A program made the translations under genes and the position numbers. From a virus: a stretch of DNA of 64,000 nt. Below, piece after piece: positions 21,467 to 50,826 of this stretch (the first letter of the stretch is position 1; each line of letters begins with the position of its first letter). Where the stretch lies: IMG/VR virus record IMGVR_UViG_3300033485_000003, positions 38,958 to 102,957 of that record; one strand, given 5' to 3'. A model generated the notes under the pieces. The model saw nothing but the letters and a program-made list of their open reading frames with translations, did not search any database and was not told the origin of the DNA.

Positions 21467-21892
21467 CTACATCCTTGAAGGCGTTTTGTCCATTACCGCC
21501 TTGAATTCCTGCAAAGTCATACCTTGATACTCGCCAACGAGAAGGTACAGTCTTGTAGCCGGCGAGGTGTTTGGATTTGACCGAACGTAATCTCTGACCT
21601 TCTTCACTTTGTCTACAGCCAATACATCTAGTATGAATTCTGGTGCGTGAATGTTGACCGCCACGGAAGCACGAACATGGAAGTTTTTGCAGGAAGCTAA
21701 CGTCGTCATAACCCAGATGTCGGTTGTCATCTCTCCTTGTACAACCTTATCTAAATAGTCTTTAGCTATAGCAACCTCGATGCTATTCGGTGGAGTGTTA
21801 GGACGACCGAACATCACATCGTCACGAAGCACCTTCGGTAATTCATCTGCGGTTACATCGACAGCTAGGGGATTGTCCGGACATTCTCTCAT
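21467..21892 (-). CDS. HEAT/LRV-repeat protein with conserved C-terminal tag
   Basis: VRASVAVN...NPNTSPATRLYLLVGEYQGMTLQEFK. Confidence 0.75.
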   Translation of the reverse strand: MRECPDNPLAVDVTADELPKVLRDDVMFGRPNTPPNSIEVAIAKDYLDKVVQGEMTTDIWVMTTLASCKNFHVRASVAVNIHAPEFILDVLAVDKVKKVRDYVRSNPNTSPATRLYLLVGEYQGMTLQEFKAVMDKTPSRM

Positions 21893-22266
21893 TTGAGAGT
21901 CTCCTTGAACTCATTCAACGTCATGTTTTGGTACCCACCCATACGCATATACAACCTGGTACCCAACGCTGTGTTGGGGTTGCTCAACACGAGCTCTCGG
22001 ATGTACTTGAGTGGGTCGGCGGACAGAATATCCAAGGCTTCTTCAGGCGCGTATACGTTCGCCGCTACGGCTTCACGGATGTAGAAGTAAGGGTGTTGGG
22101 CCCATCGCACCAACTTTTTCGGATCGGTGGATTTTTCCACAGCTTCAATGGCGGAGATTTGGTCTTCTTCAAAATCCATTACCAGTGTGACTGGCACTAG
22201 CTGGTGACGGTGGAAGTAGTCGTCTCGAACAGTTTTAGGTAAATCGTCGAATATGTAGGATCTCAT
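21889..22266 (-). CDS. HEAT/LRV-repeat protein with conserved C-terminal tag
   Basis: IREAVAAN...NPNTALGTRLYMRMGGYQNMTLNEFK. Confidence 0.75.
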   Translation of the reverse strand: MRSYIFDDLPKTVRDDYFHRHQLVPVTLVMDFEEDQISAIEAVEKSTDPKKLVRWAQHPYFYIREAVAANVYAPEEALDILSADPLKYIRELVLSNPNTALGTRLYMRMGGYQNMTLNEFKETLK

Positions 22267-22270
22267 AGTT

Positions 22271-23755
22271 TCACATCCTCACCATTTTCACCGGCCCGTA
22301 AATGTCCTCAAAAATCCTCTTGCGAGCCAATGCGTGTGCGTGTACCGTGCGGATGTTTGTGACGTCAAAATCGATGATGTTGCACGACGTCTTGTTGAGG
22401 GGCTTGAAGGGGCGTGTACAACGACCTACACCTTGACGAACCTCCACTTCGGATTTACCCCCTCTGAGATAAATCATCGTTTTTACACTTTTGAAGTCAG
22501 TGCCCACACTGACGCACGATGTAGCTACGAGTATAGGGAACTCCGACGCATTGAATTGTTTAACGAGCGAGTCGTTGTCGCACTCGTGGTATTTTTCCGG
22601 GACTTTCGACTTGTTATCGGCCAACGGCCCGTGGGCGAAGCGAACTTCATGTTGGAAGTGCGGTAGAAGTTCGGAAAACTGAGAGACCTCGTCAACCAGT
22701 ATAAGTACCTGGTGTTTCGACACCGCCACACTCTGGTTAGCGATAGCCGCCGCCCTCTTAAAAACTTCTGGATTGTAAAAGAAGTGCTTGCGGGTCATCT
22801 CATTCGGATCTGAACTTTCGAACTCGACGTGAGACTGCACAGGAACCATGAAGAACACCGGCTTGGCGAGGTAACCGCCATCAACGCCTTGACGTACGGT
22901 CAGTTCGAGCACGGTATGCCCCGTCAATGAGTCCAAAAGTTTGCCAGATCCGTCCCCACGAATTTGGGTGGCCGAAAAGCTGAATCTATACGGGGCGTTT
23001 GCGACTACACCTAGTGCAACTTTCTCAAAAGTGGTCGCCGCGATTGTGTGCGACTCGTCTGTAATAAAAACCTCACACTTGGAAAGATCTTCCCATTCTT
23101 TCGTACCGACCTCAACCCGAGTCAAGGATTGCCCAGTGCCGATGACGAACAACTTGCCGGCTTCCTTCTTGCCTCCGTAGAACTTGCCAACGTACTTTTT
23201 CCCGAAATGCTTGACGAAGTCTTCATAGAGTTGCCCCGAAATGCTAGCAGAAGGCGCCATAATGACTGTCTTAAGTCCGAGTGCTTTAACCAAAAGCAAT
23301 GCGCAAAAACTTTTCCCGGTGCCGGTCGCAAGCTCCACTCGCGCATGCTTTGCTTCCAACAACCTATCTCGCGCTTCAGTTTGGTATGGGTAGGGCGTGC
23401 GGTCCGGAACGACCGCCCACGGGATTGTTTTAGGTTCTGGGTAAACCACCTTGTTAGTTACCGTGCAGCCGTATTTCGATTTTAAGGCCTCTAGCAGCCC
23501 GCTGTTGACGTAATGACGTCCGGACCCATCTCGGCTTAGGAGGCACACCTTCTGACTCGCCTGAAGCTCAGCCAGGCGGGCTGCGTAGGCTTCCGCACCA
23601 AACTTGTGGGCGAACCAGGTCGCGTGCTGTAACTTCTTGAGTTCGAAAGCCACCGAAGTGTCGGTGTAGGTAAGTTCTTCTTGAAGTGACTTCAGCTCAG
23701 ACGGCGTCGCGTCGTCGACGTACAGCTTCGTAGGGGTCTCGAGAGTGAGTTTCAT
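22271..23755 (-). CDS. SF2 DNA helicase (UvsW/XPB-like)
   Basis: PYPYQ, ATGTGKS, DESH, SAT and QGVGRCTR motifs. Confidence 0.9.
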   Translation of the reverse strand: MKLTLETPTKLYVDDATPSELKSLQEELTYTDTSVAFELKKLQHATWFAHKFGAEAYAARLAELQASQKVCLLSRDGSGRHYVNSGLLEALKSKYGCTVTNKVVYPEPKTIPWAVVPDRTPYPYQTEARDRLLEAKHARVELATGTGKSFCALLLVKALGLKTVIMAPSASISGQLYEDFVKHFGKKYVGKFYGGKKEAGKLFVIGTGQSLTRVEVGTKEWEDLSKCEVFITDESHTIAATTFEKVALGVVANAPYRFSFSATQIRGDGSGKLLDSLTGHTVLELTVRQGVDGGYLAKPVFFMVPVQSHVEFESSDPNEMTRKHFFYNPEVFKRAAAIANQSVAVSKHQVLILVDEVSQFSELLPHFQHEVRFAHGPLADNKSKVPEKYHECDNDSLVKQFNASEFPILVATSCVSVGTDFKSVKTMIYLRGGKSEVEVRQGVGRCTRPFKPLNKTSCNIIDFDVTNIRTVHAHALARKRIFEDIYGPVKMVRM

Positions 23756-24045
23756 TGCACAACCCCCACGAAATCTCCAAAAGACATACCACTGTGCTCT
23801 GAATAGGTAGCGAGCCATAGCTTGAGAGCGCTCTTGACGTCAAAACCTTGCCAATCGGGCGAGTTAAGAAGTTCGACAAACCGTCGCTCATTTTCAAATT
23901 CAAGAGACTCAACTCTGTTCAACGGCGCTTCGAACAACTCCATAAAACAGTTCCCATCACAGCACTTCGGAATGCTCTCGGCGTAAGCCGCCAGCAAATT
24001 CGCCATGTCAACAAATGTTTTGGGAGTCTCGAGAGTGATCTTCAT
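23752..24045 (-). CDS. Hypothetical protein
   Basis: MKITLETPK start with a GGAG RBS. Confidence 0.6.
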   Translation of the reverse strand: MKITLETPKTFVDMANLLAAYAESIPKCCDGNCFMELFEAPLNRVESLEFENERRFVELLNSPDWQGFDVKSALKLWLATYSEHSGMSFGDFVGVVQ

Positions 24046-25020: not shown

Positions 25021-25063
25021 TCCAATTTTCGAGCCTCTACGCCAGGTTCACAGACACTTTTCT

Positions 25064-25265: not shown

Positions 25266-25271
25266 GGATTT

Positions 25272-25424: not shown

Positions 25425-25769
25425 GTGTATTTGACGACTCAAATCTTATCGAATCAAGGAGCCTTGGGCTTCCATGCTGGCTCGAGTCGAGCGGCAGCTC
25501 TTTTGTGTTACCTCTCCAATAGACAAGGGAGGGGTCCTTCTACATGGGTTAATCGAGACACCATCTGTAAGGCTCTTGGATGGAATCCATATCGCTTGAA
25601 GCAGTTCGATGAAGCGGTACAGGAACTTGTCGACCGTCAATTAATCGTAATTGAAGACAAGTTGATTCCCAACACCAAAACAGTAACAACTCACTATGAC
25701 TGTAGGCCGACATTGGGGGTTCTAAAGAGGCTCGGTGCATTGGAGTCAAAAGAGGAGAGTCAATCATGA
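25425..25769 (+). CDS. Winged-HTH protein, candidate replication initiator
   Basis: LLCYL...WVNRDTICKALGW...FDEAVQELVDRQLI...THY; next to the iterons. Confidence 0.55.
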   Translation: MYLTTQILSNQGALGFHAGSSRAAALLCYLSNRQGRGPSTWVNRDTICKALGWNPYRLKQFDEAVQELVDRQLIVIEDKLIPNTKTVTTHYDCRPTLGVLKRLGALESKEESQS

Positions 25770-27223
25770 CCAGAAAAGAAACCGACAAGGAGCGCCTGGA
25801 AAGGCGCAACAAGGACAAATCCACCAAAAACGTAAAGATCGATCTCTTTGCTCTTGGCAAACAGGTGGAGTCACGAGTTTTTGCTGAGACCGTCGAGGTT
25901 GACGAGACTCTTCATTCTGTGTCCAAAACCGACAACGGTTTTAGACCCGCCATCATTGATTCAAGTCACGACCTTAAGGGCTGGACTTTTGATCAATGGC
26001 GAGAGCAGCTCGCGAAAGAGTCCCTCAAAGAGATTCCTACAAAACGCGACACCCACGCTGATCCAGAGACCATGTCTGCAATTTATGCGGCGATCGGCCG
26101 GCGCACGCAAAAGTACCTCAAAGATGGCTTGCTTGGTATTTGGGAGAACCGCCAAGCAACGTATGATAAGGTTGTCAGTATCTCAAATAAAGCCGTCCAA
26201 TGCGAGCGATTGAGTCGACGGCAACTTTTTACTTGGCTGCCTGACGTTGTCGAGTGCTTTTATGACGATGAGAGTGTCCACGAACTCTTCGTTGAGATGG
26301 AAGAAGCCGGCGACAACGGACTGTCGGATGAAGAGATGGACGATTGGATTAACACATTAACAGTCAAGTCCGCCGTCAAAGTAATGAGCGTTGTTCAGGA
26401 AGATTTCTACAAGACCATCGATAGGTTCTGGTCTTACATTTGTGGCTACACAGTCAACCTGTCCGATCTTGAGCGCGTGATTATGGCGTTCAAATTTGGT
26501 TCGGCCAGGTGCGACGACACCAACTTTCGAGAGTTCGAACTTAAGGGGTTGGCAAAATGTCTCGGTGCCATCAACCCGGCAGATTATTTGTGGGTTGAGT
26601 CGATAGAGGATTTTCGTTCGCGAGCATGGGCACTCATTATGGAGCGACGTCGCGAACAAGAAGTTGAAGTTGTCGAGTCGAAGAAACTAGTAGAAGCCCC
26701 AAAAGTGATTTGGGAACCCCCCAAACCCCCAAAGCCTCGCCCTCACGCAGAAGTCGTGGCTGAAGTTCAAGCGGCTATCGCCGCACGAACAGTACCGCCG
26801 GTTGACATCACACCAGACGAGGTCTCTAAATTGACCGATTCGACCAAACTCGAAGCTTGCTCGTATTCGACTGATCCTGAAATTCTTGTAGCCGTACACA
26901 ACAACAAATACACTCCATGGTCGGCTTGTGAGCGGTGTATGGAAAATGAAGTAGTGTTTAAGCGTTTTTGTCAGCAAGCCGATGAGCGCACGCCTGTGGC
27001 CCCGGTTCAAAGGGCATCTGGAGGGCCTTCGGTATCAGATCTTGAGCTGGCGGTGACCTCAACAGATTCTCGAGAGCTAGAACGCATCGCTACTACAACA
27101 AACGATCCGATCGTGAGGGTGGCTATTATCGCCAACGGTAGTGCTGAAAAAGACTTGAAATTATGGCTGAAGGCTGTCAACAGTGGGCTTCAAATGACAT
27201 ACACTGAATTTGTGGGGGTATAA
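25766..27223 (+). CDS. Large hypothetical protein with C-terminal LRV repeats and tag
   Basis: GGAG RBS; C-terminus VRVAIIANGSAEKDLKLWLKAVNSGLQMTYTEFV. Confidence 0.7.
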   Translation: MTRKETDKERLERRNKDKSTKNVKIDLFALGKQVESRVFAETVEVDETLHSVSKTDNGFRPAIIDSSHDLKGWTFDQWREQLAKESLKEIPTKRDTHADPETMSAIYAAIGRRTQKYLKDGLLGIWENRQATYDKVVSISNKAVQCERLSRRQLFTWLPDVVECFYDDESVHELFVEMEEAGDNGLSDEEMDDWINTLTVKSAVKVMSVVQEDFYKTIDRFWSYICGYTVNLSDLERVIMAFKFGSARCDDTNFREFELKGLAKCLGAINPADYLWVESIEDFRSRAWALIMERRREQEVEVVESKKLVEAPKVIWEPPKPPKPRPHAEVVAEVQAAIAARTVPPVDITPDEVSKLTDSTKLEACSYSTDPEILVAVHNNKYTPWSACERCMENEVVFKRFCQQADERTPVAPVQRASGGPSVSDLELAVTSTDSRELERIATTTNDPIVRVAIIANGSAEKDLKLWLKAVNSGLQMTYTEFVGV

Positions 27224-27224: not shown

Positions 27225-27437
27225 ATGACTCAAGAAGAATTGGCAAAAGAGTTGGCGGAAGTCCGGGAGAAGTTTAAGGATGGGAAGGGTATGAGCAAAG
27301 CGACCAACCGCGAGCTGTCGTTGATTTTGAGTTACCCGATCGAAGGTGATCTGGTTTCTATGAAGTCTGCGCTTCGTTGGCGCGATCTCACAAAGGGCGG
27401 ACCACTAGATGTCGACAAGATCGATGGCGTCTCTTAA
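27225..27437 (+). CDS. Small hypothetical protein
   Basis: MTQEELAK start just after the upstream stop. Confidence 0.55.
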   Translation: MTQEELAKELAEVREKFKDGKGMSKATNRELSLILSYPIEGDLVSMKSALRWRDLTKGGPLDVDKIDGVS

Positions 27438-27822
27438 GCAGATGCAAGTGCACGTGTCATTGGATGGTAAGTTTCTTTTTACCTTGGACGATCTCGCGCG
27501 AGCAGAAGCCCAAGTTCTGGCTGAATGCGCTCGTCACCCGAATCCAAACGAAAGGATGCGCGCGGCTAGCTCTCAGACAACTCCGTCGGAGTCGCTGTCG
27601 TATTTGACGAGAGATCTCCAACCACAGGTGCGATTGAGGGTTGCTGGCAATATCTGTACACCAGCAGAAGGTTTTGTGGTATTGGCGGAAGATAGCGATC
27701 CACAAGTCCGAGCCGCTGTGCTCAACAATCCGTCTACGCCACCTATGGTAAAAATATGGATGCGTGGCGGGTACGGTGATATGTCTTTGAAGGAATTCTT
27801 GGAGACCGCCAATGCCGACTAA
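27424..27822 (+). CDS. HEAT/LRV-repeat protein with conserved C-terminal tag
   Basis: VRLRVAGN, VRAAVLNNPSTPPMVKIWMRGGYGDMSLKEFL. Confidence 0.75.
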   Translation: MASLKQMQVHVSLDGKFLFTLDDLARAEAQVLAECARHPNPNERMRAASSQTTPSESLSYLTRDLQPQVRLRVAGNICTPAEGFVVLAEDSDPQVRAAVLNNPSTPPMVKIWMRGGYGDMSLKEFLETANAD

Positions 27823-28540
27823 CCTTGAACTGGCAAAAGACCTCAATACTTCAACTGAGGACTTGATCCGTATCATTGGAGACATCCGAGCGGAACTAAG
27901 ACTCAAGGACGACGATGAGTACAAAGCTTTTGAACTAGCCATAAACCACGAGAACCTACCTTCCATAGTTTTGGAAGACATGGCTCGGTATGGAGCAAAA
28001 GGGCATAAACTCTATGTCGCCAGTTGTCCTCGTATGACTAGAGCGGCTTTTGAAGTGCTTGCGCAAGATTCCGACATGTGGACCAATTTGGTTATCAATC
28101 CGGCCACACCGTTGGATTTCTTGGTTAAAGTGGCTAGAACTGAACGCCCAATTACGACAGTCGGTTTTGCTCCTGATACTCCCAAGGCGAATATTGCCGG
28201 CAGCAATCGTACTCCGATTTCTATTTTGGTAGAACTTGAACAAAGCTCATTTATCTTGGTTAGGCAGAGACTAGCTCAGAATCCCAATACGCCAGAGTGG
28301 GTACGATGGCAATTGTCTTTAGACGAGGACTTTACAGTCCGACTGTATGTCTTCGCGTATTCAGGAACTTCGTCGCAGCTTCGAATTCAAATGGTGCGGA
28401 TCGAGGAAGATCCAAGAGTGATTCAATACATGTCGAAGTCTAAATGCACACCGCCTCTGGTCAAAATGTGGTTGATGTCCGAGTATCGACATACTATGTC
28501 TTTGGAAGAGTTTTTGGAGGTCGCAAGTGAGAATGACTAA
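27812..28540 (+). CDS. HEAT/LRV-repeat protein with conserved C-terminal tag
   Basis: Multiple NP.TP repeats; CTPPLVKMWLMSEYRHTMSLEEFL. Confidence 0.8.
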   Translation: MPTNLELAKDLNTSTEDLIRIIGDIRAELRLKDDDEYKAFELAINHENLPSIVLEDMARYGAKGHKLYVASCPRMTRAAFEVLAQDSDMWTNLVINPATPLDFLVKVARTERPITTVGFAPDTPKANIAGSNRTPISILVELEQSSFILVRQRLAQNPNTPEWVRWQLSLDEDFTVRLYVFAYSGTSSQLRIQMVRIEEDPRVIQYMSKSKCTPPLVKMWLMSEYRHTMSLEEFLEVASEND

Positions 28541-28910
28541 ACACGGTCCGGAATACGACGCCCTCGACTACGTTCTCGATCACGACACGCCTTCTGATAT
28601 TCTCGCGGAGTTGGTTAACAGCAATGGCGTGCAAATTCGAATCTATCTTGCCATGAATCGCAACACCCCTCCAGAAGCACATATGGCGTTAGCCAAAGAC
28701 GCTGTTGCTGATGTACGATATGAGGTTGCTGTCGGCTATAGGTCTCCGCCTGAGGCGTTGACGATATTGGCCGAAGATGGGCACGAGGATATCGTGTACG
28801 CAGTCTCAAGAAACCCCAACACTCCACCTTTGGTTAAAATGTGGCTGGAGACGTACAGGGATAGTGGAATGTCTTTGGTGCAGTTTTTAGAGGTTGCAAA
28901 TGTGGGTTAA
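28533..28910 (+). CDS. HEAT/LRV-repeat protein with conserved C-terminal tag
   Basis: NPNTPPLVKMWLETYRDSGMSLVQFL. Confidence 0.75.
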   Translation: MTKHGPEYDALDYVLDHDTPSDILAELVNSNGVQIRIYLAMNRNTPPEAHMALAKDAVADVRYEVAVGYRSPPEALTILAEDGHEDIVYAVSRNPNTPPLVKMWLETYRDSGMSLVQFLEVANVG

Positions 28911-41311: not shown

Positions 41312-43549
41312 ATGCTCCTGCAAGATTTGCTCAAAAGCGTAGCTAGGTCTGCCGCCTTCCGACACCCGACGACTGGTCAGGTGTGGGAAGTCGGCAGTTT
41401 TCATGACATCGATTCCGTTCCAACAGAACATCATGGTCAGGTAGAGGCCGGCTACGTCGACCACATTGGTAAGTTTTTGACTAACGATCAAGCCAAGCAA
41501 ATCGTACTCCAGGATGTAAAAAAGTCCGAAGCTCCAGCGTCAAAAGAAGACGACACCATTCTTGACGGCGTCCTCGCCTCGGAAGCAATCGACAAGTCCG
41601 GCGAAGTGATGGACATCGAAGGGTGCGACATCACCGAATTCGACGAAGGTAAAGGCCTTCTCAATTACGAGCACAAAGACACCGGCCCTCAAGACGTCAT
41701 CGGCAAAATCCTCTACGCCAAGAAGATTTTCAGCGCCAAAGACTGCACCAACGACCGCCAGCGTAAGTATTGGGATGATCTCAAACTCCCTATGATCTAC
41801 GGAATCGTGCGATTGGCGGACGGCAGCGGACACCCAGGAGCCATCGCAGCGGCTGCTCGAATCCGCGACGACATCAAGCATGATGAGCCGTCGAGATGGG
41901 GTTTTTCGATTGAAGGAACAACCATCAAGCGCGACACCAAAACCGGGCGACTGCTCGTGACTATCGCCAAACGATGTGCGTTGACGTTCAAGCCATGCAA
42001 CGAATCCGCAGCTACCGGGCTGATTTATGACCCAGGTGTCAAGTCGGACTTGTTCCGCACTGCACCGTCGGACGCTTCTGTGGTCGGCGGTGAAGACTTA
42101 GTCAAGACTTTCGACGCGGCTCCGTCGCAACTCACCGGTACTGCAGCGCTAGCCACAGAAGATCTCGGAATCAAAGGTAAACTCCGTCGCGCTCTCAAGA
42201 AGTGGGATCGCAAGACCCCTCTGAAGGCATTCTTGAAGATGCAGATGCCAGAAGCCGATCCATCATACATCGACAACTTCGCTGATATGACGGAGCGCTA
42301 CACAATCCGCAAGGCGCAAGAACTGGCCCTCAAAAAGCACTTGATCAAGTCGGTCGTCACCAAGATGGCGGTCAAGACACTCAAGAAGAACAGGGCCGAT
42401 GCCAAGGCCGCACTGGTGGCGAAGATGGATTCGCTCGGGGTAGAACTCCTAGAGGAACTTCAAAAAGCCGACCAACCTAAACCTATACCGTCAAAGGTCG
42501 GGCCGATGATCCGCAAGGCGGCGCCACCAGAGCCAGAAACCGTCAAATACAACGGTCGTACAGTCAAACCCGGCTTCGCTATTGCAGGTGAAGGTAATAA
42601 CAAGCAGCACCTCAGAGTTCTAGAGCATACACCAGAACATCTCATCGCCGTGCCGAAAGAGAAAATCGGCGGATGGCAAGCGTCCGACCTTCTCAAGTTG
42701 CCGCGCAACAAGGTCCCCGGCAATATCTGGATGACACGCCCCCCGGAATACGTCGGTACACCAGCCGTCATCGACTCCAAAACCCACGGGCTGGTGAATT
42801 ACACCCACCACCCAGAAGTTCACGCGTTGATCCATGGGTTAGACATGGGTCAATCCAGCAAGGCAGGTACGGTCGGGATGAAAGCTAAGGCCGGACAGGC
42901 CGCTTGGATGAAAAATGCAGCAGGCAAGCATGTTTACGTTAAGCGTGATGACAATGAACGCCCCTTCGGCGAGTCTAAGCGTGAGGCTTTGTACCACAAC
43001 CTCGCCAAGGACTTTTATGGAATGGGCAAGTACGTCACACCAACTGCGGCCGTGATCCACCCGACCACAGGGCAGCACTACACGGTGGTGGAACATACTC
43101 CAGGCGAGCACTTCAAGCACGGCGATGGCCACCCCGAGATGCTTCAAAATCTGGCAAAGAGTGGAGAGCTCCATAAGCTCGCTATCATGAACGGTATTGC
43201 CCACAACAACGACCGCCACCAGTTTAACTACCTCCTCGACAACGGCAACATGAAACTCATCGATCATGGTCTCGCTTTCAGTGGCGGCGGAAGCACAAAA
43301 GCTCCGATGACTCCACACTACATGTACGGTGGGGCAGAAGAACTTCCCGTCCACCCAGAAGCCCAAAGGTGGCTGCAAAAACTTAAGCCGGCTGAATTGG
43401 AACGCCAAATGAACCAGCACGGCGTGCCACCGGAATTCGTCCAAGAGGCATCACGCCGCCTGCAAGCAATGCAATCCCACGTCCAGGCAAACCCGAAGGC
43501 TAAGTTGTATCAGGCCTTGAACTCCCCATTTGAAGGTGGTACGAAGTAG
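41312..43549 (+). CDS. Prohead protease fused to a C-terminal PI3/4-kinase- or HipA-like kinase
   Basis: Protease: DGVLASEAIDKSGE, LNYEH, VIGKI, GFSIEG, CALTFKPCN. Kinase: YVK, REA, NNDRHQFN, IDHGLAF. Confidence 0.85.
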   Translation: MLLQDLLKSVARSAAFRHPTTGQVWEVGSFHDIDSVPTEHHGQVEAGYVDHIGKFLTNDQAKQIVLQDVKKSEAPASKEDDTILDGVLASEAIDKSGEVMDIEGCDITEFDEGKGLLNYEHKDTGPQDVIGKILYAKKIFSAKDCTNDRQRKYWDDLKLPMIYGIVRLADGSGHPGAIAAAARIRDDIKHDEPSRWGFSIEGTTIKRDTKTGRLLVTIAKRCALTFKPCNESAATGLIYDPGVKSDLFRTAPSDASVVGGEDLVKTFDAAPSQLTGTAALATEDLGIKGKLRRALKKWDRKTPLKAFLKMQMPEADPSYIDNFADMTERYTIRKAQELALKKHLIKSVVTKMAVKTLKKNRADAKAALVAKMDSLGVELLEELQKADQPKPIPSKVGPMIRKAAPPEPETVKYNGRTVKPGFAIAGEGNNKQHLRVLEHTPEHLIAVPKEKIGGWQASDLLKLPRNKVPGNIWMTRPPEYVGTPAVIDSKTHGLVNYTHHPEVHALIHGLDMGQSSKAGTVGMKAKAGQAAWMKNAAGKHVYVKRDDNERPFGESKREALYHNLAKDFYGMGKYVTPTAAVIHPTTGQHYTVVEHTPGEHFKHGDGHPEMLQNLAKSGELHKLAIMNGIAHNNDRHQFNYLLDNGNMKLIDHGLAFSGGGSTKAPMTPHYMYGGAEELPVHPEAQRWLQKLKPAELERQMNQHGVPPEFVQEASRRLQAMQSHVQANPKAKLYQALNSPFEGGTK

Positions 43550-43551: not shown

Positions 43552-44718
43552 ATGAACGCCTCCAACATCATCATGGTTTACCAGACCCACCCACACGAAT
43601 CGGGTGAAATCCATCACGTTCTCGTGGCCAAGTTTTTGCAAGTTCCTGGTCGCACGACACTTCTCGAGGATCATACGCCGGACCACACATTCGACGCGAT
43701 TGCGAACGACCCCGTCGCCATCGAGTCCAAGCTCAACGCCGCCAAGCGCTCCATGTATTTTCAGGTGTGCACTCTACAAGAGCTCAATGAGGGCGAACAC
43801 CCCGAATTATTGTCAGAGGCGCTCTTGCCGCCAGCCCATGGGCCGGAGTCTCGGTTCGATTACTTCCGCATTGGAATGCCGCAGCCGCAGCTCCTCGAGT
43901 TCTATGAGGGAGAAGGACACCTGGACGGGCACCCATTGTCGGACGAAGAGCTACAGTTGATTCACTCGAACATTGAGCGAGGTTTGGCGTCGCTTTCGTA
44001 TCACAAGGACGAGCCTGAAGTTATTGCTAAGTCGGAGGATCTCGCGAAGGTAGAGCCCCACCTTGAGGCGGCGCTAGGGGGTCTCCGTGCTGCAGTGGCA
44101 GCCGGCCATGTACATCCGGATGTTCTCAAAACACTATCCGGGCATATTTTCAAGGATACCATGGTGCCTACAATGGGCAACCGCGTATCGTTCCAGGATT
44201 TTATGTCGCGCCCGAGAGAGGGCGTTCATATCAGACTAGATGGCGCAAAATTCGGCGGCATCAATAAGCGTGCCGGGTTTGAAACTGGCAACGAAGCAAT
44301 CAAGTCTATGTTCGGTGCGGTTCGTTCGGCATTAGATGAGAGTGTCGGACGCAAAAATGCAAAGTCGTGGCGCATTGGTGGAGACGAAGGTCACGTACAT
44401 GTACCTACACTTGAGCACGCCGCTATGTTCCATCGCTCGCTCAAGCGCCACTTGGACGCTCTCCCCCTCGTGGCAGGTCAGAAGCTCGCCTTCGACATGG
44501 GTGTTGGTAAGACGCCGGAAGCCGCAGAGCAAGGTCTGATTCAAGCCAAGACGAAGGGGAAGTCTATGAACTATCCCCTACACGAGCTGAGGACTCACGC
44601 CTACGTTAACATTCCGGGTCATGAAGGGCATCTTCCTACAGAGACGGAACAGCCACCTAAGGTTCAGACTCCGACGCAGCCGACAGAGAAGCCGGCTGAG
44701 CCCAAGGTCACTACGTAA
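43552..44718 (+). CDS. Head-module protein with a variant GGDEF domain
   Basis: DTMVPTMGNRVSF, RLDGAKFGGINKRAGFETGNEAI, WRIGGDEG and DMGVG motifs. Confidence 0.75.
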   Translation: MNASNIIMVYQTHPHESGEIHHVLVAKFLQVPGRTTLLEDHTPDHTFDAIANDPVAIESKLNAAKRSMYFQVCTLQELNEGEHPELLSEALLPPAHGPESRFDYFRIGMPQPQLLEFYEGEGHLDGHPLSDEELQLIHSNIERGLASLSYHKDEPEVIAKSEDLAKVEPHLEAALGGLRAAVAAGHVHPDVLKTLSGHIFKDTMVPTMGNRVSFQDFMSRPREGVHIRLDGAKFGGINKRAGFETGNEAIKSMFGAVRSALDESVGRKNAKSWRIGGDEGHVHVPTLEHAAMFHRSLKRHLDALPLVAGQKLAFDMGVGKTPEAAEQGLIQAKTKGKSMNYPLHELRTHAYVNIPGHEGHLPTETEQPPKVQTPTQPTEKPAEPKVTT

Positions 44719-44730
44719 TATAAGTGACAA

Positions 44731-44853
44731 TGTCGTAGATAAACGCCACCCATTGGATGGCTTTGTTATTTTCAAGGTTTATTCGGAATCGCGCCTCACT
44801 CTTACGGCAATGAGTTGATGGCGCAAGATAACGACCAAATTACGGCACCACCA
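44731..44853 (+). ncRNA. Candidate multibranch structured RNA
   Basis: Nested stems TGTCGTAG/TTACGGCA, TTGTTATTTT/AAGATAACGA and GCGCC-TCA-CTC/GAG-TGA-GGCGC. Confidence 0.35.
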
Positions 44854-44873
44854 GCAGCCTCTGACGGGGAAGA

Positions 44874-45206
44874 CTATGTCACGCGCATGGCCCGGAAGAA
44901 AGGGCTGTCGAACCCTGACGCTCGCTTCTCTGAAGCCCTCCGACTCAGCCCTTCGCACATTTTGCATTTGGACTGATGTTTGTTGAAGGCCAACAGTTCG
45001 ACTTCAACCGAACGACATGCCGAGCATTCCTTGAGTCCCATGGCGCGCATACACTTTCGACACACACCGTTGCGTCCGCAATGCGCCGGCAACTGGCATT
45101 CCTTGCACATCGTGATGCGAAGACCTTTGTCTACAGCCAGGCGATTCCGCTTGCAACGTAAGCAGGTCTTGCCGATGTACGAATCGTGACAGGTGCGGCA
45201 TCTCAT
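44874..45206 (-). CDS. Cys-rich multi-zinc-finger protein
   Basis: Six CxxC pairs; ATGA-coupled. Confidence 0.65.
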   Translation of the reverse strand: MRCRTCHDSYIGKTCLRCKRNRLAVDKGLRITMCKECQLPAHCGRNGVCRKCMRAMGLKECSACRSVEVELLAFNKHQSKCKMCEGLSRRASEKRASGFDSPFFRAMRVT

Positions 45207-45541
45207 TGAGCCGCCTTCAAAAATTGCTCCAGAGACATCTCGCCATAGCCGCCTCGTAGCCATATTTTGACGAGCGGTGGAGTATTGGGGTGATTGAGAA
45301 GTCTGTCAAGCTCCATTCCCTTAACGTCAAGATCCTCATCCCCCGCCAATGCGGCCAGCGCATCTGACGGGGAAGTCCGGTTGTAAACGATCGCCCAGCG
45401 CACATAAGGATCTTTGTGCTGAACTAATGAGCGCAACTCATTTGGCGTTGCGTCGGGGTCGATGGCTCTAGAGCAAAGTCTATTGCGCTCATCTTTTTGT
45501 TGTTGGATTTGATTGCACAGGATCTGTAGACATTCAGTCAT
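45203..45541 (-). CDS. HEAT/LRV-repeat protein with conserved C-terminal tag
   Basis: HPNTPPLVKIWLRGGYGEMSLEQFL. Confidence 0.75.
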   Translation of the reverse strand: MTECLQILCNQIQQQKDERNRLCSRAIDPDATPNELRSLVQHKDPYVRWAIVYNRTSPSDALAALAGDEDLDVKGMELDRLLNHPNTPPLVKIWLRGGYGEMSLEQFLKAAQ

Positions 45542-45665
45542 ACTCACGTGCTAACACACTCCACCGCCACCGTCAACCCCCAAAACGCAAAAAGTGGGAC
45601 TATTTCATCCAACTCAACCATTAATACGTACCAAAGTTCAGACCTTCGGGTCAAGGAGTATTAGA

Positions 45666-46112
45666 ATGGCAACGTGCTATAAGTCGGAAGTTCTCGCCGC
45701 GCAGCTCAAGGCGAACCTAGAGAAGTTTTTCACCACCGTTTCGGACGTGCAGTACGACGCGAACAACACCCCCTACGTCACCATCGGTGCAATGACCACA
45801 GGCACGCAGAGCGCGCTCGTCCGCGTTTTCGCGCTTCAGCCCCTTGGGGTTGATGGTCTTGGTCTCGCGACCCGCAGCTGGGGCCCGAACACCATTCAGG
45901 TCGTTCTCGAGACGTCGGCCACCGCCAACCTCGCGTTCCTCACCGCGGCCAACTCGGCGCTTGTGATGCTTGAGGCCGGCAAGACTGGTTCCAAGGTCGA
46001 GCTCTATATGCGTGCGACTGGCACACCTCCGGCAGTGACAGACATCGTCGCCGCCAACCTGAAGGCCGAGTGGTACATGTCGACCAAGTGGAAGATGGGT
46101 TCCGCGACCTAA
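45666..46112 (+). CDS. Putative head structural/decoration protein
   Basis: AAGGAG RBS after a cUUCGg hairpin; upstream of the scaffold and MCP genes. Confidence 0.65.
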   Translation: MATCYKSEVLAAQLKANLEKFFTTVSDVQYDANNTPYVTIGAMTTGTQSALVRVFALQPLGVDGLGLATRSWGPNTIQVVLETSATANLAFLTAANSALVMLEAGKTGSKVELYMRATGTPPAVTDIVAANLKAEWYMSTKWKMGSAT

Positions 46113-46143
46113 TCCTCGTGAAGGTTCTCGGAGAAAACATACC

Positions 46144-47091
46144 ATGAAAATCAAAGAATCAGAACTCAAGGCAATTTTTGATGAGGTTGCAGAAGACCTC
46201 AGCAAGTGCTTTGAAGAAGAGTCGCAGAAGCTAGCTAAGTCCATCCCCGGCGGTGCCGAGGAATCGTCCAGCTCGGACGAGGGCTCGAAGTCGGCTATCC
46301 CGGACGCCAGTGCGTCTGAAGGTAGCTCGGCCGAGGGTTCGAAGGATGAGGATTCGAAGGGTTCGGATAGTTCGGTTCCCCCACCCCCGGCAGCCACACC
46401 GGCAGCTTCGCCCAGCCCTGCGGCTTCGCCTAGCGCCCCGGTTGCTCCCCCTGTAGCCGACCCGGCAGCCCTTGCAGCCGACATCAATGCCGGCGCAGCA
46501 GTGACCCCGGAACTGTTGCATTCGGAATACCTCAAGATGATGCAAGAGGATCCTGCCCAGTTCGCCATGCACGTGCAGGCGCTGGATGCGGTTAAGGCGG
46601 CCACTGCCGGCGCCTCGCCGAGTCCCGCTCCCGCGACACCTGCAGCCCCAGTTGCTCCTCCTATGGACGCAATGAAGGCCGAGCTCTCGCCTAGTCCCGA
46701 CCGTAAGCCGGGTGGCCAGAAGGTGGAAGTTGTACACAAGTCGGAGGATTTGAGCCGATTTGAGAATCTCATGAAGTCCTATGAGACGAAGGTAGCAGAA
46801 CTCGAAGCCAAGCTCAAGAGCCAGGCCGATGAGCAAGTTGCCGTACAGCAAGTGTTGACGAAGATCGTCGAGCGCCCCATGCGCAAGTCGATTGAGTCGA
46901 TTGCACAGGTCGCCCAAGCCCCCAAGGCCGTCGATTTGAGCAAGTTGTCTCGCGAAGCCGTCACGTCCCACCTGGGCAAGGTAGCCCGCAGCGCAGAACT
47001 CAAGAAGTCCGACCGCAGTCTCATCAATGATTTTTACTCAGGTACAGCCAAGCTCGAGCAGCTCGCACACCTCTTTTCGGAAGTCAAGTAG
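46144..47091 (+). CDS. Putative scaffolding protein
   Basis: Low-complexity and coiled-coil, many xKS/KA motifs, directly before the MCP. Confidence 0.65.
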   Translation: MKIKESELKAIFDEVAEDLSKCFEEESQKLAKSIPGGAEESSSSDEGSKSAIPDASASEGSSAEGSKDEDSKGSDSSVPPPPAATPAASPSPAASPSAPVAPPVADPAALAADINAGAAVTPELLHSEYLKMMQEDPAQFAMHVQALDAVKAATAGASPSPAPATPAAPVAPPMDAMKAELSPSPDRKPGGQKVEVVHKSEDLSRFENLMKSYETKVAELEAKLKSQADEQVAVQQVLTKIVERPMRKSIESIAQVAQAPKAVDLSKLSREAVTSHLGKVARSAELKKSDRSLINDFYSGTAKLEQLAHLFSEVK

Positions 47092-47115
47092 TACCAAGTT
47101 TCAAGGAGAATTACC

Positions 47116-48504
47116 ATGGCATCAGAAGTTACCCAAGCACTACTCAAGGCGATGGAAGCCGGCAATTACGACGCGGCCCCATCCACTCTCACCAACGGCG
47201 CAGCGCTTCAGCGAGAAGACCTGTCCCCCGTCATGACGAACCTCTGCTTCGAGGATCAACACGTCAAATTGCAAAGTAAGTTGTCCGTCAAGAAGGTCAA
47301 GTCCTTGATGAGCCAGTTTAACCGGACCCTCAGCTACGGCCAGATGGGTACGAGCGCGCAGTACGATGGTCAGGTCGGTCAGGACGAGACGGCAGACTAC
47401 GTACGTATCACCGTTCCGATCGGGTTTTACAGCCACGTTCGACGCGTGCCTTACAGCGCCACCCTCATCGAGACCGCCGACGGCGTCGACGCTGAGACGC
47501 GAGCCAAGGAAGCCGCTGGCAAGATCATCCTTGCTGACGTTGAGTTCGACGCTTTCCGCGGTATGGAAGGCTTCAGCAACGCAGGCGTGTTCGACGGCCA
47601 CGATATGGCCACCCCCGAGCTCCCCGGCATGAAGGGCCTCGACCTGCAGATCCGTCAGAGCGACAACGAGCGCAATGCTCACGACCTGATGTTCGCAGAG
47701 TACGGCGCTGATGACTCGGTTGTCATCAACGGCGGCAGCTACCTCAGCCAGACCAACGTGGAAGACGCGACCCTCCGTAGCAGCATGAACTGGGGCACGG
47801 CGACCAAGTTCCTCCTCGATCCCAAGACCCTCTCGGCGTACAACCTGATCACCCTCGGCAAGGAGCGCATCAACCTCGGCTCCACTGCTCAGGACGCGAC
47901 GGGTTCGGAACTCCGTCGGCAGTTCACCTCGAGCGGCACGGCCACCTTCGAGGCTTCGAGATTCTTGTCGGGCAAGACCAAGGTCAAGCCGTCGCGTGCT
48001 GGCGGCCTCGCGGCTCCCACTGCCGTGACTGCAACACCGGCTCCTGGCAGCACCAGCTTCCCCGCTGGCGATTACCAGTACTTCGTGACGGCATGCAATG
48101 AAATGGGCGAGTCTCCTCGCACCGCCATTGCAGCGGCTGTGACGGTTGCGGCTGGCGGCCAGGTCACCTTGTCCATCACCAATCCTGCTGGCACGGTTCG
48201 CTACTTCCACGTGTACCGTAGCAACGCCGGTGGTTCGCTCAACTCCTGCAAGTCGATCGGCCGCGTGGCTGCAAACGGCTCGGGTACGACAGTGTACGTA
48301 GACCTGAACAATCGTATTCCAGGGTACGTAAATGCCTACCTCGTGGACTTCGACTCGATGGACATCGCCGAATTGGCTCCATACTCCAGCCTCAAGCTCG
48401 CAATGAGCGCACTGAACATGCCGCAAGCTCACCTCCGATTCCTTGCCCTGAGAGTGTATCGCCCACGTGTCAACGTGATCGTCGACAACCTCATGGGGCG
48501 GTAA
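47116..48504 (+). CDS. Major capsid protein (SPO1/Twort-like) with an FN3-like insertion
   Basis: LLKAMEAG...GAALQREDL, and YQYFVTACNEMGES..YFHVYRS..YVDLNNRIPG; strong RBS and terminator. Confidence 0.85.
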   Translation: MASEVTQALLKAMEAGNYDAAPSTLTNGAALQREDLSPVMTNLCFEDQHVKLQSKLSVKKVKSLMSQFNRTLSYGQMGTSAQYDGQVGQDETADYVRITVPIGFYSHVRRVPYSATLIETADGVDAETRAKEAAGKIILADVEFDAFRGMEGFSNAGVFDGHDMATPELPGMKGLDLQIRQSDNERNAHDLMFAEYGADDSVVINGGSYLSQTNVEDATLRSSMNWGTATKFLLDPKTLSAYNLITLGKERINLGSTAQDATGSELRRQFTSSGTATFEASRFLSGKTKVKPSRAGGLAAPTAVTATPAPGSTSFPAGDYQYFVTACNEMGESPRTAIAAAVTVAAGGQVTLSITNPAGTVRYFHVYRSNAGGSLNSCKSIGRVAANGSGTTVYVDLNNRIPGYVNAYLVDFDSMDIAELAPYSSLKLAMSALNMPQAHLRFLALRVYRPRVNVIVDNLMGR

Positions 48505-48532
48505 TTCAGCCGAATCCATGCGATGATTGATT

Positions 48533-48568
48533 GGGCCCGGGAATCGCCTCCCGGGCCCTTGTCGTTTC
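48533..48568 (+). terminator. Intrinsic terminator after the MCP gene
   Basis: GGGCCCGGGA/TCCCGGGCCC stem followed by TTGTCGTTT. Confidence 0.75.
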
Positions 48569-48844
48569 TGGAGGACTGTGCTACACCACAGATACAGGTA
48601 GTGAAGACTACTCCAAATAGCGTCGATGAGTTCTGGTGAGATGTCTATGTTTTGTGGGGATAAGCACGACCATATAAGGACGAAGAGTTGTTTCAATACA
48701 AGCATGTTGGTGTATTCCTTTTGAATGTTGACTACAGGGGATAAGACGACTCGTCTTCGGTACCTGGCGACATTTACTCCGAATAGTCGATGAATGGTCG
48801 TTGACGTCAGAAGTGTGGCGTGGTAGAATCTCAATCGAGGATTA

Positions 48845-50518
48845 ATGAGACCAACACCCAAAGAGGTCGTCGACCAAATCTGTCAACTGTTTCATAGTGG
48901 CAAGACCGTTTGGGATATTGGCGCTGCCCTCTCGCTCCCCACCTCAACGGTGCGAAGGGTGCTAAACAGAAACGGGCTCCACTACCCCAAAGTTGCAACC
49001 TCAAAAGAAACCGTCGACGCCGCCTGTGAACTATTCAAAACAGGCAAGACTCTGCTTGAAATTTGCAAGGCGTTGTCTCTTCCGTATGCCACAGCACGTA
49101 AGGTGTTGGCTGTTCGTGGGTTCCGCTACTCCAGGAAGAAATCAAAACAAGCCTTATGTCATCAAGAAATATGCGACATGGCTGCCAATGGTGTTTTTTT
49201 GCATCAAATCGCCGACGCTCTCGGTCTGTCTCGTACGGAGCTATGGACGTACTGTAAGGTACAGCACATTGAATTCAAGAAGGCGCTGCTCGACCCCACG
49301 CCGCAGCAGATGCAGATGATTAAAGATGCGGTCGTGCAAAACCTGGAGCTTCCCGTCAAACAACGCCTAACGCTCCCCAAACTCGCAGCGGAGTTGGGAG
49401 TCACGACATCCGCCGTAAAGGCAGCTAGAAAGCAATTAGGGGTCGTGCACGATCGATCTGCGGATATGATCAAGAATACCCCACAAGACTTCTTGGATAC
49501 GTGTCGCGTCAGAGGATTTACCGCAAAGTCGGTGCCTGACAAGATTTTGATGACAGATAAAATCACACTAATCTGCCCCTGCGGAGCCGAGTTCGCCCCT
49601 ATGGTGCAATCGGTGTTTAGAGGTACTGTCACGTCATGTGGCTGTCTTAAATCAAAAGCCCAGGCGGACTTGCTTCGTTCTATTCAAGAGATGGGGTTCG
49701 GGGTAGAGAAAAACAACAAGCGCCTACTCGACAACAGAGAGCTCGACGTCTACATTCCATCCAAGAAATTTGCGATTGAATACAATGGGCTGTATTGGCA
49801 CCGAGAGGACATTCTCGCACGCAATCGAGACAACCCCACCAACTACCATGCAGACAAGTTCCATCGCCTAGCCATCATGGGGATTCAACTCATCACCATC
49901 TTCGAAGATGAGTGGCTAGAAAACAAAGAATTGGTATTGTCGATGCTCCGAGCCAAATTGGGTGTCGCCTCGAAGTCGATTTTTGCGCGCAAATGCAATG
50001 TAACGTGGGACAAGGGCCGCGTCCACGACTTTGTGCAGCGTAATCACATTCAGGGTGCATGTCATGGCGCCCACCTCGGCCTAGAGCTAGATGGCGAAGT
50101 GGTAGCCGGTATGATTTTTCGTGCCAACGGGAGATTGACGCAGTCTGGACAAGAACTGGCTAGATTCTGCAACCTCGCCAATACACGCGTCGTCGGTGGG
50201 TTTTCGAAGTTGCTCCGAGCGTTCATCGAGAAACACTCTCCGACAGAAGTTGTTTCTTTGTCCGACAATAGATGGAGCGACGGCGGTCTATACAAGAACA
50301 ACGGATTTAGCCTTGCAAGAGAGTCAGAGCCGAGTTACTACTACGTCAAGGGGAGCAAGAGGCTACACAAGTCTCAGTTCCGACTAGAGCGGCTCAAAAA
50401 GATGGGGTGGTACGAAGAGGGCAAAACCGAAGCTCAAATCACAGCTGAACACGGATTACACCGCATCTACGACTGTGGCAAGAAGGCGTGGCTCTTCCGT
50501 CCTCAAATCCAACCATGA
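48845..50518 (+). CDS. HTH repeats + Vsr/PD-(D/E)xK homing-endonuclease-like protein (Hef-like C-terminus)
   Basis: ELDVYIPSKKFAIEYNGLYWH, IFEDEW, IFARKC, ELARFC..VVGGFSKL and IYDCGK; promoter TTGACG-17-TAGAAT at 48801. Confidence 0.75.
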   Translation: MRPTPKEVVDQICQLFHSGKTVWDIGAALSLPTSTVRRVLNRNGLHYPKVATSKETVDAACELFKTGKTLLEICKALSLPYATARKVLAVRGFRYSRKKSKQALCHQEICDMAANGVFLHQIADALGLSRTELWTYCKVQHIEFKKALLDPTPQQMQMIKDAVVQNLELPVKQRLTLPKLAAELGVTTSAVKAARKQLGVVHDRSADMIKNTPQDFLDTCRVRGFTAKSVPDKILMTDKITLICPCGAEFAPMVQSVFRGTVTSCGCLKSKAQADLLRSIQEMGFGVEKNNKRLLDNRELDVYIPSKKFAIEYNGLYWHREDILARNRDNPTNYHADKFHRLAIMGIQLITIFEDEWLENKELVLSMLRAKLGVASKSIFARKCNVTWDKGRVHDFVQRNHIQGACHGAHLGLELDGEVVAGMIFRANGRLTQSGQELARFCNLANTRVVGGFSKLLRAFIEKHSPTEVVSLSDNRWSDGGLYKNNGFSLARESEPSYYYVKGSKRLHKSQFRLERLKKMGWYEEGKTEAQITAEHGLHRIYDCGKKAWLFRPQIQP

Positions 50519-50826
50519 TGATAGAACTCTTCCACGACATGGAATGGGACGAGCTAGAAGCCGAGGCGGCCGACCTTGGTACACCGCCTGAGCGCCTTGA
50601 AGAATTGTCGCATTGTAGGCAACTCGACGTGAGATATTGGGTCGCATTCAACTCCAGCGCATCTCCAGAGACGCTGATCCGACTTGCACAAGATCGGTAC
50701 GAGAGTGTTCGCCGCCGGGTGTTTGAAAATCCATCCACACCACCTTTAGTGAAATTGTGGTTGCAAACCGACTACCGACATACTATATCTCTGGAAGAAT
50801 TCTTGAAAGCCGCCAAGGAGGCGTAA
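50515..50826 (+). CDS. HEAT/LRV-repeat protein with conserved C-terminal tag
   Basis: NPSTPPLVKLWLQTDYRHTISLEEFL. Confidence 0.75.
   Translation: MMIELFHDMEWDELEAEAADLGTPPERLEELSHCRQLDVRYWVAFNSSASPETLIRLAQDRYESVRRRVFENPSTPPLVKLWLQTDYRHTISLEEFLKAAKEA

What the first reader, a model, noticed from the sequence alone, without database searches (positions are those of the whole stretch)
21467..50826. Family of eight HEAT/LRV-repeat proteins sharing a conserved C-terminal tag
Seen: genes at 21467, 21889, 25766, 27424, 27812, 28533, 45203 and 50515 have largely unrelated N-termini and varying repeat counts. All end in roughly NPxTPPxVK[MLI]W[LM]xx(G)YxxM[ST]LxEF[LK]. They are dispersed on both strands, and the tag is also appended to a 485-aa protein next to the putative origin. 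Inference: a variable-binder plus constant-docking-tag adaptor family (anti-defence, or targeting to a protease or chaperone), analogous to poxviral ankyrin/F-box arrays. It could instead be a simple capping helix.
Basis: partly seen in the sequence, partly recalled or inferred. Interest (0 to 1): 0.72.

Follow-up and report, generated by a model that had tools for sequence, protein, structure and literature searches.

The report
Shared C-terminal module on phage proteins
A distant relative of Myxococcus phage Mx1 encodes about two dozen small proteins with different bodies that all end in the same 25-30-residue helix-loop-helix, which looks like a common handle for one shared partner that is still unknown.

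Summary
All eight genes exist and end in PPxVK[ILM]W[LM]-x5-7(Y)-M[ST]LxEF[LK]. A ninth window gene (23755-24045, minus strand) has no LRV repeats but carries the tag, and two more tagged genes lie in the same record outside the window. A second fragment that probably belongs to the same ~164-kb phage adds 12, giving about 23 per genome.

In relatives the tag sits on five to seven body types, four clearly not LRV: LRV solenoids, a beta-sheet body, zinc-ribbon bodies and others. It is conserved at the protein level (60% identity against 27% for the adjacent repeats, with mostly different codons). I found it only in this clade, not in Mx1, not in one-pattern scans of cellular genomes, and not in PHROGs. 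Pfam named no family for the tag.

AlphaFold2 places it as an ordered helix-loop-helix in both an LRV protein and a beta-body protein. "Just a solenoid cap" therefore describes its origin but not its spread.

Variable body plus constant C-terminal module is supported. The docking partner, expression timing and any anti-defence role are untested.

Another reader of this scan noted the same tag on five proteins in the overlapping neighbouring window (e1-5987764).

The parts
21467..21892 (-). 141-aa LRV protein with a diverged tag (tag 21470-21565: ...ATRLYLLVGEYQGMTLQEFK...)
   Evidence: E 7e-25 with the 48-aa profile.
21889..22266 (-). 125-aa LRV protein with a diverged tag (tag 21892-21969). 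Its stop overlaps the next gene's start.
   Evidence: (LRV 27 bits, above the cut-off).
23752..24045 (-). 97-aa protein with no LRV match that ends in the tag (tag 23755-23835: ...SALKLWLATYSEHSGMSFGDFVGVVQ).
   Evidence: E 3e-5 with a profile built without it. (no LRV in Pfam at E<=10). (orphan in the word-index search).
25766..27223 (+). 485-aa protein. It has an unannotated 400-aa N-terminal part, then LRV-like repeats and a diverged tag (27146-27220: ...DLKLWLKAVNSGLQMTYTEFVGV).
   Evidence: LRV_2 at 429-471; E 3e-18.
27409..27822 (+). 137-aa LRV protein with the tag (27739-27819). This is the member folded with AlphaFold2.
   Evidence: pLDDT 88.6, tag = H112-120, turn, H127-136; best PDB match is 1LRV.
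27812..28540 (+). 242-aa LRV protein with more repeats and the tag (28451-28537).
   Evidence: E 6e-29; ortholog in L048 at 84% identity.
28527..28910 (+). 127-aa LRV protein with the tag (28824-28907).
   Evidence: (LRV 26 bits); relative P0111.
45203..45547 (-). 112-114-aa LRV protein with the tag (45206-45280), inserted on the opposite strand inside the head-gene block.
   Evidence: relatives L058 and L073 have a TnpB-like gene at this position.
50488..50826 (+). 103-112-aa LRV protein with the tag (50740-50823), overlapping the end of the 557-aa multi-HTH gene.
   Evidence: (LRV_2 28.9 bits); orthologs L057 1161-1463 and P0102.

Best explanation
SHOWN. The last 25-30 residues form a discrete, ordered helix-loop-helix module. 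Its pattern is h-[KR]-h-[WY]-h, a loop that usually holds a Tyr, then M-[ST]-L-x-[ED]-[FY]-L and a short tail.

The module starts like the second half of an LRV repeat (NPxTPP plus helix). It therefore most likely arose as the modified terminal repeat of an LRV solenoid.

In this clade of distant Mx1 relatives the same module now ends five to seven kinds of small protein, four of them clearly not LRV. A genome carries about 23 tagged genes, mostly in overlapping arrays in variable regions.

The module is held by selection on the protein sequence, and at least once it was copied between genes at the DNA level.

INFERRED. The module is a constant handle that brings many different bodies to one shared partner, either a phage or host protein or each other. 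The bodies would be the target-binding or effector parts. This is an adaptor or effector family, probably used in host takeover or counter-defence. The partner is not identified.
For: 1. The tag is present on all listed genes and on three more in the record.

2. 52 distinct tagged ORFs came from relatives found by back-translated DNA pattern scans. More were missed by the regex.

3. Clustering the bodies gives one LRV cluster of 29 plus separate clusters and singletons with no detectable similarity to it. The beta-body set aligns as its own family.

4. AlphaFold2 of an LRV member gives pLDDT 88.6, with the tag as two helices continuing the solenoid. AlphaFold2 of a beta-body member gives pLDDT 85: five strands, then the same helix-loop-helix.

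5. Tag identity is 0.60, against 0.27 for the two preceding repeats.

6. Only 46% of identical residues in the first 12 tag codons share a codon, so the DNA has diverged while the peptide is kept. One pair in L069 has identical DNA across the tag, so 3' exchange does happen.

7. I saw the tag only in contigs that share genes with this phage. Structural proteins were 65-93% identical in the larger ones. It is absent from Mx1. The cellular LRV proteins retrieved lack it. One strict pattern scan of 185,579 species genomes gave only chance hits.

8. A second fragment of what is probably the same phage has 12 more tagged ORFs.

9. Tagged genes evolve faster than their neighbours: 54-73% identity against 75-87%. 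They sit among mobile or accessory genes: a Dam-like methylase, a deaminase, TnpB-like genes and homing-endonuclease-like genes.
Against: 1. No partner was found and no multimer model could be run.

2. In both models the tag is an ordered part of the fold, not a free peptide.

3. The conserved polar residues could be structural. S/T-x-x-E is a helix capping box, and the K/R and E/D could form a salt bridge.

4. Tags from the same sample are no more alike than tags from different samples. There is therefore no sign of lineage-specific co-evolution with a partner.

5. Expression timing is unknown, and the promoter scan was at chance level.

Confidence: 0.45

Rival explanations
1. Purely structural module. 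The helix-loop-helix is a portable folding or stabilising cap. It seals the hydrophobic end of LRV solenoids and packs equally well on other small bodies. It has no partner of its own.
For: The tag begins as an LRV half-repeat and continues the solenoid at high confidence. In the beta-body model it is also an ordered, integral element. Most conserved positions are hydrophobic (V, W, L, M, L, F, L) or fit a helix capping box. There is no within-lineage co-variation.
Against: A cap tuned to an LRV core has no obvious reason to be kept on a beta-sheet protein, zinc-ribbon proteins and orphans. Other small LRV proteins, from cells and from other metagenomes, end differently. The tag is twice as conserved as the repeats it would cap. 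In the beta-body family a conserved tail (SLGV[IL]x) lies beyond the last helix and is modelled as coil.
Confidence: 0.25
2. Virion-loading signal. The tag binds the inside of the procapsid (coat, scaffold or portal), so that many small proteins are packaged and injected with the DNA. This would resemble scaffold C-terminal helix-loop-helix coat binding or encapsulin cargo-loading peptides.
For: The position is C-terminal and the shape is helix-loop-helix. Two tagged genes lie in the head-gene block. The type-B tail SLGV weakly resembles the encapsulin motif SLGIGSL (from memory, not tested). Other notes in this scan propose packaged effectors in this phage (e1-5987774, unchecked).
Against: None of the 11 tagged genes has the AATCT[TA]-N6-start motif that precedes 8 genes, several of them structural or structural-adjacent (the motif is itself an unverified lead). 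Most tagged genes lie in arrays beside replication and accessory genes. The head-block copy at 45203 is replaced by a TnpB-like gene in relatives. The scaffold's own C-terminus is not tag-like.
Confidence: 0.12
3. Self-association module. The tags pair with one another, for example as four-helix bundles, so the family forms homo- or hetero-oligomers that combine different bodies.
For: The module is an amphipathic helix-loop-helix. There are many co-expressed copies in overlapping arrays. No other partner is apparent.
Against: Monomer models place the tag confidently against its own body. There is no direct test.
Confidence: 0.1
4. Turnover or processing tag. The C-terminus is recognised by a host or phage protease or unfoldase (Clp/Lon, or the phage MoxR-like ATPase with its VWA/metallopeptidase-like partner) to time the removal of these proteins.
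For: The position is at the extreme C-terminus. The phage encodes a MoxR-like AAA+ and a DUF2201/VWA protein. Neither has a match in Mx1, which lacks the tag. That is a single weak contrast.
Against: Degrons are usually short and disordered, whereas this tag is modelled as ordered helices. The last residues, which such systems read, vary widely among type-A tags.
Confidence: 0.05
5. Not a protein feature. The shared 3' ends would reflect a DNA or RNA element, or very recent gene conversion.
For: One pair in L069 shares identical DNA across the tag.
Against: Synonymous sites differ widely among the window's copies and among the L063 copies while the peptide is kept. Genes in the arrays overlap, which leaves no room for a separate element.
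Confidence: 0.02

Closest known systems
LRV (leucine-rich repeat variant) proteins: Pfam PF01816/PF25591, structure 1LRV. Small LRV proteins are also annotated in uncultured tailed phages.
   Same: About 24-residue repeats with the VRxxVAxNPxTPxxxLxxLAxD consensus. Pfam matches. An alpha-solenoid model whose best PDB match is 1LRV. The best viral matches are phage proteins named 'Leucine rich repeat variant'.
   Different: None of the cellular or other-metagenome LRV proteins I inspected ends in this tag. Here the tag also occurs without any LRV repeat.
Poxvirus ankyrin-repeat / PRANC (F-box-like) multigene families
   Same: A virus-encoded multigene family with a variable repeat body and a constant C-terminal module. 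The copies are dispersed and turn over between relatives.
   Different: A different repeat (LRV, not ankyrin). No F-box or PRANC match in Pfam. The host is a bacterium without an SCF ligase. The tag is 25-30 aa and also sits on non-repeat bodies.
Dockerin-type or cargo-loading C-terminal tags: cellulosome dockerins, encapsulin cargo-loading peptides, and the P22 scaffold helix-loop-helix that binds coat protein
   Same: One short constant C-terminal module on many unrelated bodies, implying a single receptor. The P22 scaffold module has the same helix-loop-helix shape.
   Different: No sequence match to any of them. No receptor is known. The comparisons with encapsulin and P22 are from memory, not tested.
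Mx1-type myxophages (Myxococcus phage Mx1, OR576727.2)
   Same: The portal protein is 48% identical. The genome is large and has a GroEL-like gene.
   Different: Mx1 has no match to the LRV-plus-tag profile. It also has no match to the MoxR-like and VWA genes.

Membership tests
LRV repeat proteins (PF01816 / PF25591) | Tandem repeats of about 24 residues that match the LRV profile. | tested here: met
   all eight listed proteins match LRV or LRV_2. Four are above the curated cut-off: 21889, 28527 and 50488 on LRV, and 50488 also on LRV_2; 11 places in the record. This is not met for 23755-24045 or for record 1013-1297.
LRV repeat proteins (PF01816 / PF25591) | A right-handed alpha/3-10 solenoid fold, as in 1LRV. 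| tested here: met
   the model (pLDDT 88.6) is all short helices; the top Foldseek match is 1LRV (E 0.012, probability 1.00), followed by alphaRep and HEAT proteins.
Poxvirus ANK/PRANC-type adaptors | A C-terminal F-box-like (PRANC) domain. | tested here: not met
   no F-box or PRANC family at E<=1 in any of the eight proteins.
Poxvirus ANK/PRANC-type adaptors | Ankyrin repeats as the variable body. | tested here: not met
   only LRV and HEAT families match.
T4-type capsid targeting sequence | An N-terminal signal removed by the prohead protease. | tested here: not met
   The shared element is at the C-terminus in every member.
Encapsulin-type cargo-loading peptide or scaffold-type coat-binding module | A C-terminal peptide that binds the lumen of an HK97-fold shell. 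| not testable with these tools
   No multimer modelling was available. Only a four-residue likeness (SLGV) in type-B tails. The scaffold C-terminus is not tag-like.
Sliding-clamp binding tails (QL[SD]LF, PIP box, T4 SLDFLF type) | A short extended C-terminal peptide with the clamp-binding consensus. | tested here: inconclusive
   xxLxxFL is only a partial likeness. The segment is modelled as a packed helix. No phage clamp was found with PF02768 or PF02916. The host clamp was not tested.
Dockerin | A duplicated calcium-binding loop-helix of about 70 aa. | tested here: not met
   No Pfam match. The loop lacks the acidic ligand pattern in the window's copies.

The most novel reading that the evidence does not exclude
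The tag is a phage-specific sorting or docking signal. One receptor would read the same helix-loop-helix on about 23 different small proteins. The receptor could be a phage machine, such as the MoxR-like ATPase with its VWA partner or the procapsid, or a host hub protein. This would be a dockerin-like or cargo-tag system that a phage uses to deploy a changeable kit of host-directed proteins.
Probability: 0.3. Interest if true: 0.8.

Novelty: new variant of a known kind. Interest (0 to 1): 0.62.

Why it matters
Phage accessory genes are mostly orphans with no handle for study. Here roughly a tenth of a large phage's genes can be recognised by one short, well-defined C-terminal module.

If that module docks to a single partner, one pull-down with the tag would name the partner. 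It would also mark the whole set of tagged proteins as working through it.

The module would also be a natural example of domain shuffling: a repeat-protein cap turned into a portable tag. The case is open to direct experiment because both the tag and the bodies are small.

Tried and rejected
1. The full-library profile search with the last 48 aa was swamped by ordinary LRV proteins, because I left one repeat in the profile.

2. Tags are not more alike within a sample than between samples (difference -0.004; 1179 of 2000 permutations were as large). I dropped the claim of concerted evolution or co-evolution.

3. The DNA-element or gene-conversion explanation was rejected by the codon comparison.

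4. The EF-hand reading of the loop was rejected. PDB sequence matches to EF-hand proteins have E of about 1, and the window's loops lack the ligand pattern.

5. GroEL as the specific partner is not favoured, because tag-less Mx1 also has one.

6. No phage sliding clamp was found.

7. The sigma-70 promoter and terminator scan around the arrays was at chance level.

8. PHROGs gave no family for any member.

9. The beta-body fold has no clear PDB match: Foldseek E>0.4 and VIA Z<=6.1.

10. The ESM Atlas search on the 485-aa protein gave nothing usable.

12. Model coordinates are not returned by the tools, so burial of tag residues could not be measured.
Full report
WHAT THE WINDOW IS

The window is bases 38958-102957 of a 102,957-bp IMG/VR virus record that CheckV rates 64% complete. 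Its portal protein is 48% identical to that of Myxococcus phage Mx1, and far less similar to any other phage in the collection. There is no nucleotide match to any deposited phage.

The region holds a helicase, an AAA protein, terminase and portal genes (the portal carries an intein), ThyX, a MoxR-like ATPase, a VWA/metallopeptidase-like protein, kinase fusions, the coat gene, a GroEL-like gene and a ribonucleotide reductase. The host is probably a myxobacterium. That is an inference from the Mx1 likeness only.

THE OBSERVATION

All eight genes are there and end as described. I built a profile from the last 48 residues and ran it on the six-frame translation of the whole record. It found three things:
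- the eight listed genes;
- a ninth LRV gene outside the window (record 640-1038);
- a 97-aa ORF inside the window (23755-24045, minus strand) with no LRV repeat, ending ...SALKLWLATYSEHSGMSFGDFVGVVQ (E 3e-5).

A further non-LRV ORF (record 1013-1297) ends ...ARVWARSDGYNMPLADFL. Its 66%-identical ortholog in a relative ends ...VIWAQSDYSESMPLAEFL.

A relaxed pattern hits 10 ORFs, always at the extreme C-terminus, against 0.01 hits in shuffled sequence. That pattern was fitted after the fact. The independent evidence is the profile E-values and the fixed position.

LRV IDENTITY

All eight listed proteins match Pfam LRV or LRV_2. An AlphaFold2 model of the 137-aa member (17-sequence alignment, pLDDT 88.6) is a solenoid of short helices. 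Its best solved match is 1LRV, followed by HEAT-type alphaRep proteins. Its best viral matches are uncharacterised phage 'leucine rich repeat variant' proteins.

The tag starts as a normal LRV half-repeat (NPxTPP plus helix). It then replaces D-x-D-x-x-VRxxVA with a loop carrying Tyr and a helix M-[ST]-L-x-E-F-L. The tag therefore most likely began as a modified terminal repeat.

THE TAG IS A SEPARABLE MODULE

I scanned public collections with back-translated tag patterns. The scans found two more IMG/VR fragments and about 15 metagenome contigs with real tags. Every one of these contigs shares genes with this phage; in the larger ones the structural proteins are 65-93% identical.

Together they give 52 distinct tagged ORFs, plus several my pattern missed. 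Clustering the bodies with the tag removed gives:
- one LRV cluster of 29;
- a beta-rich family of about 65 residues (G-x-x-F-x-L...WW...R-x-G...IP-x-x-h-x-x-A-x-[KR]-h-W), which aligns as its own family;
- zinc-ribbon bodies;
- a 'KILGWLN' body;
- an HTH fusion that looks like a deletion product;
- the two orphans of this phage;
- the 485-aa protein.

Pfam finds no LRV in the three non-LRV bodies scanned or in the N-terminal 400 aa of the 485-aa protein, even at E<=10.

An AlphaFold2 model of a beta-body member (11 sequences, pLDDT 85) has five strands. These are followed by helices at 65-76 and 85-91, which are the tag, and a five-residue coil tail. It has no convincing match in the PDB.

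In one relative (L063), 10 of about 12 consecutive small genes carry the tag. The run is interrupted by a Dam-like methylase.

There are two tail flavours. LRV bodies mostly end ...EEFLEAxx. Beta and zinc-ribbon bodies end ...EFL[TS]SLGV[IL]x. The window's 23755 and 25766 genes end DFVGVVQ and EFVGV.

COPY NUMBER

A protein identical to one on contig L067 sits on a 164,168-bp contig. Proteins identical to two window genes sit on a contig of the same length. L067's contig is 60,789 bp, and 102,957 + 60,789 = 163,746. That record (G003) is therefore probably the rest of the same phage, although the two pieces share no overlapping sequence.

The 18 kb of G003 that I fetched hold 12 more tagged ORFs. 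That makes about 23 per genome.

SELECTION

Among LRV members the 27-residue tag is 60% identical on average. The two preceding repeats are 27% identical.

In the first 12 tag codons, only 46% of positions with identical residues use the same codon. Paralogs in L063 also differ at synonymous sites. The peptide is therefore what is conserved, not the DNA.

One pair in L069 has identical DNA across the tag on an LRV body and a 'KILGWLN' body. This shows the exchange route by which the tag can move between genes.

Tagged genes diverge faster than their neighbours, at 54-73% identity against 75-87%. Their sites are variable. The copy at 45203 is replaced by a TnpB-like gene in two relatives. Homing-endonuclease-like genes also abut two clusters.

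DISTRIBUTION

- Mx1 has no match to the LRV-plus-tag profile.
- One strict pattern scan of 185,579 species genomes returned six loci, none with a tag.
- The last word-index search, using all body types, returned tagged proteins only from this clade. The LRV proteins it found from cells and other metagenomes end differently.
- PHROGs has no family for any member.
- These searches are limited. One pattern covers one loop length, and word-index sensitivity is modest, so absence elsewhere is provisional.

FUNCTION

This part is inference. What is shown is a constant, ordered C-terminal helix-loop-helix on many different small bodies, under protein-level constraint and in variable accessory arrays. 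The simplest reading is a common handle: every tagged protein meets the same partner, or each other, through it, and the bodies provide different targets or activities. I put this at about 0.45.

The main rival is a portable stabilising cap with no partner (0.25). It fits the models and the hydrophobic conservation. It does not explain why the tag is retained on unrelated folds, why other small LRV proteins lack it, or why the beta family keeps a conserved coil tail.

A virion-loading signal (0.12) is attractive by analogy. It has three points against it:
- None of the 11 tagged genes has the AATCT[TA]-N6-start motif seen before 8 genes, several of them structural or structural-adjacent.
- Most tagged genes lie beside replication and accessory genes.
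- The scaffold C-terminus is not tag-like.

Self-association (0.1) and a turnover tag (0.05) remain possible.

On candidate partners there is only one weak contrast, based on a single genome. GroEL is present in tag-less Mx1. The MoxR-like ATPase and its VWA partner have no match there.

WHAT I COULD NOT DO

- The tools return no model coordinates, so exposure of conserved tag residues is unmeasured.
- No multimer modelling was available.
- My single full-library profile search was largely wasted, because the profile included an LRV repeat.

EARLIER NOTES

After my own profile search had already found the non-LRV members, I read the scan's notes. Another reader had flagged the same tag on five proteins in the overlapping neighbouring window. 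That agrees with my result but is not independent evidence. The notes also supplied the Mx1 lead, which I confirmed, and the late-motif lead, which I only partly checked.

VERDICT

The 'variable body plus constant tag' reading is supported as architecture. The mechanism is open.

The LRV repeat family is known. The portable tag and its roughly 23-fold use in one phage matched no family in the libraries searched (Pfam, PHROGs) and turned up in none of the three paper searches I ran.

Noticed in passing
window 33285-36728 (+) and 6914-9733 (-): The portal gene carries an intein (Intein_splicing plus LAGLIDADG_3). The ribonucleotide reductase gene also has a LAGLIDADG insert.
   Followed up: no
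window 29026-30171 (+) and 48845-50518 (+): Two homing-endonuclease-like genes lie directly next to tagged genes. One has DUF4379 zinc fingers plus an REase-like domain. The other is a 557-aa protein with several HTH repeats and a Vsr/REase-like C-terminal part. Relative G001 has two copies of the first beside its tag clusters.
   Followed up: partly
window 4585-5790 (-); L058 647-1768, L073 5151-6272, L065 1714-2754: A TnpB-like ORF (Cas12f1-like TNB domain). Distant copies lie next to tagged genes in relatives, and in L058 and L073 a copy takes the place of the 45203 gene.
   Followed up: no
window 37425-38540 (+) and 39308-40465 (+): A MoxR-like AAA+ ATPase and a DUF2201_N/VWA protein sit among the head genes. 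Neither has a match in Mx1, which also lacks the tag family. This is a single contrast and a lead only.
   Followed up: partly
window 14459-16204 (-): A phage-encoded GroEL-like chaperonin (Cpn60_TCP1). Mx1 has one too.
   Followed up: partly
window 41312-43549 (+) and 53984-57277 (+): Weak PI3/PI4-kinase-like matches in a 745-aa protein and a 1097-aa protein. The 1097-aa protein starts with two LRV/HEAT-like repeats but has no tag.
   Followed up: no
L058 4775-5038 (+): An 88-aa ORF that joins an HTH like the start of the 557-aa gene to half an LRV repeat plus the tag. It looks like an in-frame deletion fusion that kept the tag.
   Followed up: no
L069 8988 and 9438 (+): Two tags on different bodies share identical DNA over 15 codons except one base. 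This is a recent 3'-end exchange between paralogs.
   Followed up: partly
L063 4422-5018 (-), L065 1256-1606 (+), L065 8121-9410 (+): Untagged genes inside the tag arrays of relatives: a Dam-like N6-adenine methylase, a cytidine/dCMP deaminase-like protein and an ATP-dependent DNA ligase.
   Followed up: no
G003 (IMGVR_UViG_3300033485_000012) 350-3696 and 44002-51955: Probably the other 61 kb of the same phage. It has 12 further tagged ORFs, including two adjacent zinc-ribbon-type ones.
   Followed up: partly
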